Part shown: positions 28,375 to 30,207 of the stretch, piece by piece
How positions within the stretch are numbered: position 1 is the stretch's first letter
How the letters are laid out: every line of letters begins with the position of its first letter
Source of the DNA: Candidatus Latescibacterota bacterium
GTDB taxonomy: Bacteria; Latescibacterota; UBA2968
Direction: 5' to 3'
Assembly: GCA_965208125.1 (NCBI GenBank)
Contig: OZ242320.1
Location: forward strand, 416,001-480,000
DNA length: 64,000 nt
Translations under genes and position numbers: made by a program
Notes under the pieces: generated by a model
The model's input: the letters and a program-made list of their open reading frames with translations, nothing else
Databases searched by the model: none
Told to the model about the DNA's origin: nothing

Positions 28375-30207
28375 TCAATCCGCAAACGCCCCATTGCCAA
28401 TGGCGAAGATATTATTTGGATCCATCGCCTTTTTCATCTGCCGCAACACTGCAATGCTATTTTCGCTTTGAATCTGAGGCAAAAATCCACTGCGGAGTTT
28501 GCCCACGCCGTGATGGTGCGACAAAGACCCGCCGTAGTCTAAAATTTCCTGCCGCAACTGGCGCTCAATCGCGTGATAAACGCCAACCGAATCCTCAAGC
28601 CCCTGCGCGCAAAAACCCATTGTAAAATAAATGCACACGCCCGTGTGATAGGTCTGCGTCACGCGATAGGCCAGAAAGGGCTTGCCCGGCACGCCGTATT
28701 CTTCACACAAAACAACCAACTTCTTTTCCACCGCACCAATAACATCGTGAATATTAGTCCACGGCACAGAAGTCTCAAATGTCTCACCCAAAATGTGAAA
28801 CTGAGTAAAAAAATCGCGAATATACGCAATACCAAACGTCAACATATATCCCCGCTCGCCACGGCGCGCACCGCCCGAAATACCGCCGTACTTCTTCGCC
28901 AAACGGAAAATCGTCTTTTCCTGCTGCCGGACCTCGTCTTTTGTGCCCTCCATCACAATCGTACACGCCACCAACTGATTCGGATCAAAACCCTTGACCT
29001 TGACCAAAAAAAATTGCTGAATATCCTGCTGGAACTTCTTGAATCCTTTAGCCTCGGGCTTCAGCGCCTGTCCAAGATGAAATTCCGTATTGTTCACCAG
29101 CCGAATACTCGCCGGAATTTGTCCCGTCTGTCGAAGTGCCTTTAAGTAACCCACACCCCGTTCAAATGACGGAAACACCAACGAACCAAACGCCTGTGCT
29201 TCGGGCTGTTTGTGAATCTTTATCGTCGCCCGGGTAATAATCCCCAAATTGCCCTCACTTCCAAACAAAAACGACCGGGGCTGCACACCCGTCGAATTGC
29301 GCGGCGTCGCATGGTGTGTCTCCACCTCCCCCGTTGGCGTCACCAGCGTGGCCTCTATCACAATATCCTCAATATTGCCATACCGGTTCTTTTTCATACC
29401 ACTGGCATTGGTCGCAATCCATCCCCCCAGAGTTGAAAACTCCAGACTATCTGGATCGTGTCCCGACGTGTATCCCAGCTCATTCAGCGCAATCTCCAAT
29501 TGCTTACCCGAAATACCCGCTTGCACACACGCCTGAAAATTCTCTTCATCCACCTGCACAATGCGACTCATGCGGCGCATATCCACCGACGCGACCATCC
29601 GCGTCTCTGAAATAGGAACAGCGAGCGCACCGCTCACATTCGTCCCGCCGCCATAGGGCACCAGCACCACATTGTGGTCATTTGCAAGCTGAATAATAGC
29701 CTGAATATCCGCGTCTTCCTCTGGGAACAACACCACATCCACCAGGCGTTTGGGCGGCCGATGGTACAAAATTTGATACACCTCATCCACACTCAACTGT
29801 CCGTGGCTATGCACCAGACGCGCTATGTCCTCCTGAGAAACCCCATCTTCGTTGAGCGCATCGCGCACCGCCCTTAAAAATTCGTCATTTGCCACGGGTG
29901 TGGGCAAATCGCGGTGCTCGATCTCTTGCCCCATATCTTCGGGACGGATCGGCACATTGAGCACCTCTTCGACAAAAGGCAAAAAATACGGCATCCGATA
30001 GCCACACAGCGGATACCGCGTTCCCGTCACCTGCACAGTCCTGTCATCGTCAAACTCAAACCGCGTATCCTTATATCCCCACTTGTGTGCAAACCGCTCG
30101 CCTTCTGCTCCCTCAGAAAAACGGTCTTTGCTGGCAAAAGCGCGACGCCCCCGAACGAGCAAAAATACCATCACCAATAAAATTGCAACTATCATCAGTT
30201 CATTCAT
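28375..30207 (-). CDS. Alkyl-dihydroxyacetone-phosphate synthase (AGPS/ADAS), FAD-dependent, with N-terminal membrane anchor
   Basis: WGYKD, [66 protein letters not shown] and [14 protein letters not shown] match the eukaryotic AGPS motif set. Confidence 0.92.
   Translation of the reverse strand: [610 protein letters not shown]

What the first reader, a model, noticed from the sequence alone, without database searches (positions are those of the whole stretch)
28375..30207. The AGPS is strikingly eukaryote-like and has an N-terminal membrane anchor in place of a peroxisomal signal
Seen: long motifs [53 protein letters not shown] and [14 protein letters not shown]. As I recall the mammalian AGPS sequence, these nearly match it, including the substrate-binding Arg, the catalytic Tyr and the HHH motif. 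The N-terminus ([22 protein letters not shown]) is a single TM helix followed by basic residues. Inference: this may be a bacterial sister lineage to eukaryotic AGPS or a cross-domain transfer, relevant to the origin of eukaryotic ether lipids.
Basis: partly seen in the sequence, partly recalled or inferred. Interest (0 to 1): 0.75.

Follow-up and report, generated by a model that had tools for sequence, protein, structure and literature searches.

The report
Membrane-anchored bacterial ether-lipid synthase (AGPS)
This is a genuine bacterial copy of the enzyme that makes the ether bond of ether lipids, tethered to the membrane and sitting in a four-gene pathway operon, but it belongs to a large, already reported bacterial family rather than being a special link to animals.

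Summary
All four quoted motifs and the N-terminus are present. It is a true alkylglycerone-phosphate synthase (AGPS). It matches guinea-pig AGPS 4bby at E 6e-153 over residues 42-602. The residues Arg419, Tyr578, His615-617, Arg515 and Thr309 of 4bby are all conserved. The AF2 model superposes on 4bby at 1.4 A.

It lies in a tight FAR - divergent acyltransferase - AGPS - SDR operon. The host is a Latescibacterota genome.

The "eukaryote-likeness" (39-43% identity to animals) is family-wide. M. xanthus AGPS is also about 42% identical to human AGPS (PMC9131029).

In ML trees the gene nests deep in a bacterial clade. All named bacterial rows fall in that clade and all named eukaryote rows fall outside it. 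A special Latescibacterota-plus-eukaryote clade is rejected (p-AU 4e-39).

The N-terminal hydrophobic helix followed by a basic cluster is real. It is specific to one clade: 14 of 80 loci carry it, 11 of them among the 13 titled Latescibacterota.

No PEDS1/CarF family member was found in 168 genomes of the phylum, so the likely products are alkyl ether lipids, not plasmalogens.

AGPS homologues in Latescibacterota are already in print. The anchor, the operon layout and the unannotated acyltransferase are the modestly new parts.

The parts
32174..33778 (-). Fatty acyl-CoA reductase (FAR), 534 aa. First gene of the operon; it supplies the fatty alcohol.
   Evidence: Pfam NAD_binding_4 (PF07993) E 7.7e-65 plus the Sterile C-terminal domain (PF03015) E 5.4e-15. 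PDB 7eoz 'Fatty acyl-CoA reductase' E 3.5e-88. It is the only full-length PF07993 match in the genome. It ends 9 nt before the next gene's ATG.
30224..32164 (-). 646-aa two-domain protein. The N-terminal all-helical domain (about residues 1-412) has no recognised fold. The C-terminal domain (about 413-646) is a PlsC/GPAT-type acyltransferase. It is the candidate DHAP acyltransferase.
   Evidence: No Pfam or NCBIfam family at default thresholds; only a weak PF01553 hit, E 0.12, at residues 438-579. Only 170 homologues at E<=1e-5 were found; nearly all the named ones are 'hypothetical' and none has a precomputed Pfam domain. The AF2 model has pLDDT 85.9. Foldseek: PlsC 5kym E 3.7e-4 with TMt 0.63, and squash GPAT 1k30; nothing matches the N-terminal domain. 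In the 41-sequence alignment H447 is 41/41, position 452 is D in 31 and E in 10, and R482, G542, P576, R580 and G581 are 41/41.
28375..30207 (-). Alkylglycerone-phosphate synthase (AGPS), 610 aa. This is the finding itself.
   Evidence: Pfam FAD_binding_4 plus FAD-oxidase_C. 4bby E 6e-153. AF2 pLDDT 91.8. Foldseek top hit 4bby_C with TM 0.87/0.95 and rmsd 1.4 A.
30142..30207 (-). Codons 1-22 of AGPS: acidic tip (N2, E3), apolar stretch L4-V18, then the basic cluster R19-G-R-R22. Inferred signal-anchor with the N-terminus out and the catalytic domain in the cytoplasm.
   Evidence: KD 2.84 over 17 residues. AF2 helix 2-24 followed by a disordered linker at 21-32. The same layout occurs in 110 of the 120 best homologues and in 14 of 80 genome loci. 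Topology is inferred from the positive-inside rule and was not tested.
29320..29739 (-). FAD-binding domain (residues 157-296).
   Evidence: PF01565 E 1.3e-37.
28402..29205 (-). FAD-linked oxidase C-terminal (cap) domain, residues 335-602. It holds R369, R464, Y527 and H564-566.
   Evidence: PF02913 E 2.1e-37. Residue equivalences to 4bby R419, R515, Y578 and H615-617 come from the alignment. R369, R464 and Y527 are invariant and H564-566 are at least 90% conserved in the 66-sequence alignment.
27528..28394 (-). Short-chain dehydrogenase/reductase; candidate 1-alkyl-DHAP reductase. The start is uncertain: the ATG at 28394 overlaps the AGPS 3' end, and the ATG at 28340 gives MFRDKVVIITGASSGLG.
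   Evidence: adh_short E 1.8e-46. NF004825 E 6e-90, above its cut-off. Sequence. An SDR homologue lies on the same strand within 2 kb downstream of AGPS in 32 of the 77 loci that have room for it, across several phyla.

Best explanation
The gene encodes a functional bacterial alkylglycerone-phosphate synthase (EC 2.5.1.26) of a Latescibacterota bacterium.

The four co-oriented, tightly spaced genes form a DHAP-route ether-lipid module:
1. FAR reduces acyl-CoA to a fatty alcohol.
2. The divergent PlsC/GPAT-type acyltransferase makes 1-acyl-DHAP.
3. AGPS, using FAD non-redoxically, swaps the acyl group for the alcohol to give 1-O-alkyl-DHAP.
4. The SDR reduces the keto group to give 1-O-alkyl-sn-glycerol-3-phosphate, which then enters ordinary phospholipid synthesis.

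The N-terminal helix tethers AGPS to the cytoplasmic membrane with the catalytic domain in the cytoplasm. This does the job that peroxisomal import and peripheral membrane binding do in animals. Because the phylum lacks the PEDS1/CarF desaturase, the end products should be saturated alkyl (plasmanyl or monoalkyl-glycerol) ether lipids, not plasmalogens.

Shown here: homology, conserved active-site residues, fold, gene order, distribution and tree position. Inferred: the substrates of the acyltransferase and the SDR, the topology of the anchor, and the lipid products.

On evolution, the gene is a vertically inherited member of a large bacterial AGPS clade. That clade as a whole is sister to the animal-type eukaryotic clade.
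For: Enzyme identity:
- 4bby E 6.2e-153 and Dictyostelium 2uuu E 9e-91; the next family (D-lactate dehydrogenase) scores only 89 bits.
- 4bby H300, T309, R419, R515, Y578 and H615-617 align to identical query residues H250, T259, R369, R464, Y527 and H564-566. R369, R464 and Y527 are invariant in 66 sequences.
- PDB entry titles confirm that Tyr578Phe and Arg419His are the mutants that were studied.
- AF2 pLDDT 91.8; 4bby_C TM 0.87/0.95, rmsd 1.4 A, 42% identity.

Pathway context:
- FAR, acyltransferase and SDR are annotated.
- Gaps between genes are 9 nt and 16 nt, and the AGPS and SDR frames overlap.
- The FAR+AT+AGPS order recurs in 10 of 80 loci. The AGPS-SDR pair recurs in 32 of 77 loci.

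Anchor:
-.
- No other operon protein has a comparably hydrophobic segment. The acyltransferase has none; FAR and the SDR each have one marginal window of 1.67-1.73.

No plasmalogen step:
- PF10520 was found in 0 of 168 genomes of the phylum, including the closed own genome (96% complete).
- The same search found it in 4 of 5 AGPS-bearing Myxococcota genomes.

Vertical inheritance:
- AGPS is present in 124 of 168 genomes of the phylum: families f1 28/30, f2 22/22, f4 71/76.
- G+C of the gene region is 0.515, against 0.449-0.570 across the window.

Tree:
-.

Literature:
- Deleting M. xanthus MXAN_1676 (AGPS) reduces ether lipids to a minor degree (PMC9131029, passages read).
Against: - No biochemical or lipid data exist for this organism.
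- The sponge-symbiont preprint (10.64898/2026.06.23.733905, passages read) detected no short-chain plasmalogens and suggested that bacterial agps might not be expressed. That does not bear on alkyl ethers, however.
- The acyltransferase is so divergent that Pfam misses it (E 0.12), and its block III lacks the usual acidic residue. Its substrate (DHAP or G3P or lyso-lipid) is a guess from gene order.
- The SDR belongs to a generic family.
- The apolar core of the anchor is only 15 residues. No dedicated topology predictor was available.
- In M. xanthus the AGPS route is minor compared with ElbD (PMC9131029).
Confidence: 0.85

Rival explanations
1. Recent cross-domain transfer: the gene was acquired by this lineage from an animal or other eukaryote (for example a host), which would explain its animal-like motifs.
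For: The match to mammalian AGPS (514 bits) is much stronger than the dictyostelid enzyme's match to mammalian AGPS (331 bits). An ankyrin-repeat gene lies nearby.
Against: The closest relatives are all bacterial, at 96% down to 45% identity across many phyla. Identity to animals is only 39-43%, and 39% to the sponge sequence. The gene nests in a bacterial clade with SH-aLRT 96-99. Its clade held together with the eukaryotes is rejected, p-AU 4e-39. It is near-universal in its class. Its G+C is ordinary.
Confidence: 0.02
2. Ancient family-level transfer: the bacterial AGPS clade and the animal-type eukaryotic clade are linked by one old inter-domain transfer, in either direction. This gene is simply a descendant on the bacterial side. 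This concerns evolution only and is compatible with the best explanation of function.
For: One branch (SH-aLRT 99) separates 51 rows from the named eukaryotes; those 51 rows hold all 42 named bacterial rows, the query and 8 unlabelled representatives. Eukaryote monophyly (16 rows) is not rejected, and the tree with them held together is 12.4 lnL better (p-AU 0.72). PMC13012113 (sections 11 and 12 read) argues for a bacterium-to-eukaryote transfer for PEDS1 and FARAT.
Against: The root is unknown. With the divergent ~550-aa family as outgroup, the free tree puts the eukaryotes as a weakly supported basal grade (SH-aLRT 81-88). A clade of 3 Myxococcota rows plus the eukaryotes is disfavoured (dlnL 89, p-AU 0.003), but that constraint also forces the three rows together. 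Several rows inside the 'bacterial' clade are unlabelled and may be eukaryotic. The dictyostelid AGPS sits elsewhere.
Confidence: 0.5
3. The N-terminal hydrophobic segment is a cleaved Sec signal peptide, and the enzyme works in the periplasm.
For: A short apolar stretch of 15 residues is followed by A-F-A, which resembles an AxA signal-peptidase site.
Against: There is no positive charge before the apolar stretch (M-N-E). Four of the next nine residues are basic (RGRR...K) and lie between the helix and the AFA, which by the positive-inside rule keeps the C-terminal side in the cytoplasm (sequence; the rule is established knowledge). The AFA is not conserved in homologues, whereas the basic cluster is. 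FAD loading and the acyl-CoA/NADPH-dependent partner enzymes are cytoplasmic.
Confidence: 0.07
4. It is a generic FAD-linked oxidase/dehydrogenase (glycolate or D-lactate dehydrogenase type) and not an ether-bond synthase.
For: NCBIfam lists only GlcD-type models, all far below their cut-offs (TIGR00387 scores 166 bits against a cut-off of 568). Public records name relatives 'FAD-binding oxidoreductase'.
Against: The alignment is full-length and includes the AGPS-specific N-terminal domain (query 42-150). The Tyr, the HHH loop and the Arg are conserved. The model lies 1.4 A from 4bby, against 3.5-5.6 A and about 20% identity for D-lactate dehydrogenases. FAR and an acyltransferase are adjacent.
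Confidence: 0.02

Closest known systems
Mammalian peroxisomal AGPS/ADPS (guinea-pig structures 4bby, 4bca, 4bc7, 5adz and others; human AGPS)
   Same: The three-part architecture is the same: N-terminal AGPS-specific domain, FAD-binding domain and cap. Identity is 42%, rmsd 1.4 A, TM 0.95 on the target. R419, R515, Y578, H615-617, T309 and H300 all have identical equivalents. It acts next to a DHAP acyltransferase at a membrane (PMC5146282, passages read).
   Different: There is no N-terminal peroxisomal presequence; instead there is a 22-residue helix plus basic cluster. Here AGPS carries the hydrophobic anchor and the acyltransferase has none. In humans the DHAP acyltransferase is the one bound to the membrane through its N-terminus (PMC5146282). 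The genes are clustered in an operon.
[quoted passage not shown]
   Same: It is a bacterial AGPS with about 42% identity to human AGPS, clustered with FAR and acyltransferase functions and a reductase-type gene. It has genetic evidence for a role in ether lipids (PMC9131029 and PMC13012113, passages read).
   Different: Gene order here is FAR, AT, AGPS, SDR, with FAR and AT as separate genes. The AT has an unrecognised 410-aa helical domain instead of a fused FAR. The last gene is a classical SDR. The AGPS has a membrane anchor, which is absent from all 7 Myxococcota loci. No CarF/PEDS1 is present. The Myxococcota rows branch in other parts of the bacterial clade. I did not have the M. xanthus sequence itself.
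Dictyostelium discoideum AGPS (2uuu)
   Same: Same enzyme and same fold (TM 0.80/0.90).
   Different: Only 28-29% identity. The dictyostelid representative groups with a divergent ~550-aa family, away from both the animal-type and the bacterial clades.
Thermotoga maritima PlsC (5kym) and squash GPAT (1k30), for the second gene
   Same: The C-terminal domain shares the acyltransferase fold (E 3.7e-4, TMt 0.63) and has an H-x4-D/E motif plus conserved Arg, Gly and Pro blocks.
   Different: Identity is 11-14%. It falls below Pfam thresholds. It has an extra 410-aa helical N-terminal domain with no PDB match by Foldseek.

Membership tests
Alkylglycerone-phosphate synthase (AGPS/ADPS, EC 2.5.1.26) | VAO/PCMH-type two-domain FAD fold (FAD_binding_4 plus FAD-oxidase_C) | tested here: met
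   PF01565 E 1.3e-37 at residues 157-296; PF02913 E 2.1e-37 at residues 335-602.
Alkylglycerone-phosphate synthase (AGPS/ADPS, EC 2.5.1.26) | End-to-end homology to solved AGPS, including the AGPS-specific N-terminal domain, and clearly better than to other FAD oxidases | tested here: met
   Query 42-602 aligns to 4bby 95-653 at 513.8 bits. The next non-AGPS family scores 89 bits.
Alkylglycerone-phosphate synthase (AGPS/ADPS, EC 2.5.1.26) | Active-site Tyr578, the His615-617 loop and Arg419 (guinea-pig numbering). Their roles are recalled from Nenci et al. 2012, which I could not open. | tested here: met
   They align to Y527, H564-566 and R369. These are invariant or at least 90% conserved in 66 sequences. 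PDB titles name the Tyr578Phe and Arg419His mutants.
Alkylglycerone-phosphate synthase (AGPS/ADPS, EC 2.5.1.26) | Three-dimensional fold superposable on AGPS | tested here: met
   AF2 pLDDT 91.8. The first 29 Foldseek ranks are all AGPS chains; the best is rmsd 1.4 A with TMt 0.95.
Alkylglycerone-phosphate synthase (AGPS/ADPS, EC 2.5.1.26) | Exchange of the acyl group of acyl-DHAP for a fatty alcohol | not testable with these tools
   This needs an enzyme assay. Gene context (FAR and an acyltransferase adjacent) fits.
Gene of recent eukaryotic origin (cross-domain transfer into this lineage) | Branches within, or as specific sister to, a eukaryotic clade | tested here: not met
   It nests in the bacterial clade. 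The AU test rejects its clade held together with the eukaryotes, p 4e-39.
Gene of recent eukaryotic origin (cross-domain transfer into this lineage) | Patchy distribution among close relatives and atypical composition | tested here: not met
   Present in 19 of 20 other genomes of the genus and 28 of 30 of the family. G+C 0.515, within the window's range.
N-terminal signal-anchor (single-pass, N-out/C-in) membrane protein | Apolar helix long enough to span a bilayer, with positive charges on the cytoplasmic flank, conserved among relatives | tested here: inconclusive
   There are 15 strictly apolar residues; AF2 predicts a helix at 2-24; RGRR follows. The layout is conserved in 110 of 120 homologues. 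No topology predictor or experiment was available.
Aerobic plasmalogen pathway (FAR, GNPAT, AGPS, PEDS1) | Presence of the PEDS1/CarF vinyl-ether desaturase (PF10520) | tested here: not met
   Found in 0 of 168 genomes of the phylum, including the own genome. The positive control gave 4 of 5 Myxococcota genomes.
PlsC/GPAT (AGPAT) acyltransferase superfamily, for the second gene | H-x4-D catalytic motif and acyltransferase fold | tested here: met
   H447 is 41/41 and position 452 is D in 31 and E in 10. Foldseek 5kym E 3.7e-4. The Pfam match is only E 0.12. DHAP specificity was not tested.

The most novel reading that the evidence does not exclude
A large class of Latescibacterota, together with relatives labelled Poribacteria and Fidelibacterota, runs a complete 'peroxisome-free' DHAP ether-lipid pathway organised at the inner membrane by a transmembrane-anchored AGPS. 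The acyl-DHAP step is carried out by a new, so far unannotated acyltransferase family, whose 410-residue helical domain takes the scaffolding role that the GNPAT-AGPS complex has in animals. In addition, AGPS as a family has a different history from PEDS1 and FARAT: all bacteria are sister to the animal-type eukaryotes, and the eukaryotes are not nested in Myxococcota. If so, the eukaryotic pathway was not transferred en bloc.
Probability: 0.25. Interest if true: 0.55.

Novelty: new variant of a known kind. Interest (0 to 1): 0.35.

Why it matters
Bacterial AGPS and its roughly 42% identity to the human enzyme have been known from myxobacteria for years. AGPS homologues in Latescibacterota have been counted in two recent screens (PMC11868695; bioRxiv 10.64898/2026.06.23.733905). 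The headline of the finding is therefore not new.

What this analysis adds:
1. This lineage is not a special bridge to eukaryotes. Its animal-likeness is a slow-evolving property of the whole family.
2. A clade-specific membrane anchor replaces organelle targeting.
3. The genes form a full four-step operon with separate FAR and acyltransferase genes. The acyltransferase belongs to an unannotated family, which makes a concrete, testable candidate for a bacterial DHAP acyltransferase.
4. The phylum lacks PEDS1/CarF. Screens that read 'agps' as a marker of plasmalogen (alkenyl) synthesis probably over-interpret it; alkyl ethers are the likelier product. This bears on who makes the monoalkyl glycerol ethers seen in marine samples.
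5. In my limited tree the AGPS history does not obviously follow the Myxococcota-to-eukaryote story proposed for the other pathway genes.

Tried and rejected
Plus-strand reading: full of stops, rejected.

Several rows in the trees therefore stay unlabelled: P0131, P0133, P0138, P0146, P0149, P0154 and the giant fusion proteins. An Atlas look-up of P0154 returned only nearest AGPS clusters, mostly eukaryotic (arthropod) with one mostly bacterial, not its own taxon.

My first PTS2 regular expression (a consensus recalled from memory) found no match in the 110 representatives it was run on. By eye, several eukaryote-like N-termini carry R-[LI]-x5-H-[LV]-like strings, so I did not use PTS2 as a classifier.

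The promoter/terminator consensus scan of 26200-34400 was uninformative: 14 promoter-like sites against 8.3 expected, and 18 terminator-like sites against 10.7 expected.

A search for fold relatives of the acyltransferase's N-terminal domain beyond Foldseek could not be run because the pdb_via_wide library is not installed.

Complex prediction was run on AGPS residues 33-610 with the acyltransferase N-domain residues 1-412. The result was no verdict (score 0.00, controls not run). This is neither evidence for nor against binding.

Nenci et al. 2012 could not be opened by DOI. A search for Arg419/Tyr578 found no paper. The residue roles are therefore recalled, supported only by PDB entry titles.

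A search for 'agps' + 'transmembrane helix' + 'bacteria' found 17 papers. None of the 10 titles and abstracts I saw concerns a membrane-anchored bacterial AGPS. The sponge preprint has 0 occurrences of 'transmembrane'.

I considered whether the SDR, the GH3 gene (26476-27690) and the YegS-like lipid kinase (25389-26285) all belong to the module. Only the SDR is kept, because only its adjacency is conserved.
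Full report
WHAT IS THERE

The stated interval is an open frame only on the minus strand. The plus-strand translation is broken by stops. The minus strand reads 610 aa from the ATG at 30207. A GAGG lies about 7 nt upstream of the ATG, and homologues begin at the same MNELM....

Pfam finds FAD_binding_4 (157-296) and FAD-oxidase_C (335-602).

Against all PDB sequences the best hits are:
- guinea-pig AGPS: 4bby, E 6.2e-153, 513.8 bits, query 42-602 against chain 95-653;
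- its Tyr578Phe and Arg419His variants;
- Dictyostelium AGPS: 2uuu, 9.3e-91.

The next family, D-lactate dehydrogenase, scores only 89 bits.

The printed alignment has a constant offset of 50-51 residues. It puts query H250, T259, R369, R464, Y527 and H564-566 opposite 4bby H300, T309, R419, R515, Y578 and H615-617, all identical. In a 66-sequence alignment spanning bacteria, animals, an oomycete, a gregarine and a dictyostelid, R369, R464 and Y527 are invariant and H564-566 are at least 90% conserved. The catalytic roles of these residues are recalled from Nenci et al. 2012, which I could not open. PDB titles confirm which residues were mutated.

An AlphaFold2 model built from that alignment has mean pLDDT 91.8. 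Foldseek ranks 29 AGPS chains first. The best is 4bby_C, with TM 0.87 (query) and 0.95 (target), rmsd 1.4 A and 42% identity. Dictyostelium 2uuu follows at 29% identity. This is an AGPS by every test available short of an assay.

THE N-TERMINUS

Residues 1-22 read M-N-E, then fifteen apolar residues (L4-V18), then R-G-R-R. The Kyte-Doolittle mean is 2.84 over 17 residues. AF2 draws a helix at 2-24 followed by a low-confidence linker at 21-32.

The same design (acidic or neutral tip, apolar stretch, basic cluster) is present in 110 of the 120 best database homologues. Of the ten exceptions, P0030 and P0077 lack the N-terminal region, P0110 has a long extra N-terminal stretch, and seven are forms of about 590 aa that start without the helix.

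Among one-per-species genome loci it occurs in 14 of 80:
- 11 of 13 titled Latescibacterota;
- one Neomarinimicrobiota (Fidelibacterota);
- one Wenzhouxiangella;
- one unnamed bacterium.

It occurs in none of the other 59 loci, which include Acidobacteriota, Chloroflexota, Myxococcota, Gemmatimonadota and others. In the tree these 14 fall in one clade, so the anchor is a clade-specific addition.

With no positive charge ahead of the helix and a dense basic cluster behind it, the positive-inside rule predicts the N-terminus outside and the catalytic domain in the cytoplasm. That is also where FAD, acyl-CoA and NADPH are. This topology is inferred, not tested, and the apolar core is short.

SURROUNDINGS

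Upstream on the same strand lie two genes.
- A fatty acyl-CoA reductase at 32174-33778: NAD_binding_4 E 7.7e-65 plus the Sterile domain; PDB 7eoz E 3.5e-88.
- A 646-aa protein at 30224-32164 that has no Pfam or NCBIfam family.

Downstream is an SDR at 27528-28394. The gaps between genes are 9 nt and 16 nt, and the AGPS and SDR frames overlap.

The 646-aa protein has only 170 detectable homologues. Nearly all the named ones are called hypothetical, and they come mostly from Latescibacteria-labelled bins. Its AF2 model (pLDDT 85.9, pTM 0.90) shows a helical domain to about residue 412 that matches nothing in the PDB by Foldseek. The C-terminal alpha/beta domain matches T. maritima PlsC (5kym, E 3.7e-4, TMt 0.63) and squash GPAT. 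An H-x4-D/E motif is conserved (H447 41/41; position 452 D in 31, E in 10), as are Arg, Gly and Pro blocks. A language-model look-up also lands on acyltransferases.

The four genes thus supply, in order, the fatty alcohol, (by inference) acyl-DHAP, the ether bond, and (by inference) reduction to 1-alkyl-G3P. These are the same four steps as the mammalian peroxisomal route described in PMC9131029.

The FAR+AT+AGPS arrangement recurs in 10 of 80 loci, 9 titled Latescibacterota and one titled only 'bacterium'. An SDR homologue follows AGPS within 2 kb in 32 of 77 loci across Latescibacterota, Acidobacteriota, Fidelibacterota and Deinococcota. In Myxococcota and Gemmatimonadota a FAR-like gene follows AGPS instead.

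The operon's FAR is the only full-length NAD_binding_4 reductase in the genome; I saw no long ElbD-like frame with that query. A fatty-acid synthesis cluster (fabH, fabD, fabG, fabF) starts divergently about 400 nt upstream of the operon.

WHOSE GENE, AND HOW WIDESPREAD

The window is part of a closed 5.75-Mb genome. The nearest records, at 96%, 94% and 81% AGPS identity, are titled Candidatus Latescibacterota.

AGPS is found in 124 of 168 genomes of the phylum. It is near-universal in three families of the window's class (28/30, 22/22, 71/76) and almost absent elsewhere in the phylum.

There are 5536 proteins at E<=1e-30 among the 8000 scored.

The PEDS1/CarF family (PF10520) is absent from all 168 genomes of the phylum, including the own genome. 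The same search finds it in 4 of 5 AGPS-bearing Myxococcota genomes. The likely products are therefore alkyl, not alkenyl, ether lipids.

IS IT SPECIALLY EUKARYOTE-LIKE?

Identity to named animal AGPS is 39-43% (39% to a sponge) and 28% to the dictyostelid sequence. PMC9131029 gives about 42% for M. xanthus MXAN_1676 against human AGPS, so this level is a family trait.

I built two trees.
- A FastTree of 146 rows: the query, 77 loci, 16 named eukaryote rows, 45 unlabelled 50%-identity cluster representatives and 7 divergent ~550-aa proteins as outgroup.
- An IQ-TREE (LG+C20 PMSF, short search, SH-aLRT) of 72 of those rows by 588 columns.

Both trees agree.
- All named bacterial rows and the query fall in one clade (support 99).
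- All named eukaryote rows lie outside it, with the dictyostelid grouping near the outgroup.
- The query sits inside a clade of Latescibacterota, a representative whose relatives are labelled Poribacteria (P0046), and one Fidelibacterota row (96).
- The sister of that clade is Wenzhouxiangella + Trueperaceae + P0124 (97).

AU tests gave the following results.
- Forcing the query's 12-row clade together with the 16 eukaryote rows costs 156 lnL units (p-AU 4.4e-39).
- Forcing the 16 eukaryote rows into one clade is not rejected and is in fact 12.4 lnL better than the free search found (p-AU 0.72).
- Forcing three Myxococcota rows together with the eukaryotes costs 89 lnL units (p-AU 0.003). That constraint also forces those three rows together.

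The groups were named after I had seen the trees. The searches were the 'quick' kind. Several rows are unlabelled and there are long branches. The firm conclusion is limited to the position of the query. The deep bacteria-versus-eukaryote relation and its direction remain open, in line with the statement in PMC13012113 (section 11 read) that AGPS gave insufficient signal.

WHAT IS KNOWN

[quoted passage not shown] Deleting MXAN_1676 reduces ether lipids to a minor degree (PMC9131029; PMC13012113).
- PMC13012113 proposes that eukaryotes obtained PEDS1, and probably FAR-AT, from Myxococcota.
- Agps homologues were counted in 67 of 92 Latescibacterota MAGs of one marine data set (PMC11868695, passages read). 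They were also reported in Latescibacterota, Poribacteria and Acidobacteriota bins of sponge metagenomes (bioRxiv 10.64898/2026.06.23.733905, passages read).
- Both screens treat agps as a marker of alkenyl ethers.
- I found no mention of a membrane-anchored bacterial AGPS, nor of the 646-aa acyltransferase family. I could not see the supplements.

VERDICT

The evolutionary interpretation holds only at the level of the whole bacterial family, which is already under discussion in print. This particular lineage is an ordinary, vertically inherited member.

The modestly new items are:
- the clade-specific anchor;
- the split four-gene operon;
- the unannotated acyltransferase;
- the absence of the plasmalogen desaturase across the phylum.

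Noticed in passing
window 25389-26285 (-): A YegS/diacylglycerol-kinase-type lipid kinase (DAGK_cat plus YegS_C) lies two genes downstream of the operon on the same strand, after a GH3 NagZ-like gene (26476-27690). A lipid kinase next to an ether-lipid module could act on alkylglycerols, but its adjacency was not checked in relatives.
   Followed up: no
window 23605-24522 (-): An ankyrin-repeat protein (Ank_2 E 3e-19), which is a eukaryote-like repeat protein. An ABC ATPase lies next to it at 24526-25200.
   Followed up: no
window 34156-39478 (+): A fatty-acid synthesis cluster is transcribed divergently from the ether-lipid operon: YceD-like gene, fabH 35190-36182, fabD 36183-37100, fabG-like gene 37124-37870, fabF-like gene 38186-39478, then RNase III 39490-40266.
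   Followed up: partly
window 1-64000: GC skew is negative in 29 of the 32 two-kb blocks, regardless of which strand the genes are on. The plus strand is C-rich throughout.
   Followed up: no
proteins P0147, P0151-P0153, P0161, P0162, P0164, P0167 and others: Unlabelled proteins of 2,100-2,700 aa carry an AGPS domain at their C-terminus. In the 146-row tree the 7 long C-terminal AGPS domains that I included (1,043-2,727 aa proteins; among them P0147, P0151, P0153 and P0164) form a clade with P0149, P0154 and other mid-length unlabelled representatives inside the otherwise bacterial clade. Their organisms are unknown; if they are eukaryotic, this would be a second eukaryotic AGPS group.
   Followed up: partly
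proteins P0126 (810 aa) and P0044 (1060 aa): These are fused forms. The N-terminus of P0126 looks like an acyltransferase with an H-x4-D string ahead of the AGPS part. P0044 carries aminotransferase Pfam domains in addition to the AGPS domains.
   Followed up: no
protein P0230 (dictyostelid AGPS; 1092 bits to 2uuu): The dictyostelid enzyme does not group with animal-type eukaryotic AGPS. It groups with a divergent ~550-aa family that I used as outgroup. This may be long-branch attraction or a separate origin.
   Followed up: partly
window 21808-23427 (+); 41736-43607 (+); 44830-46044 (+): An MXAN_6640-family HExxH putative metalloprotease. A protein matching Pfam family PF13941 (Pfam name 'MutL'), and a DUF6754 protein.
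   Followed up: no
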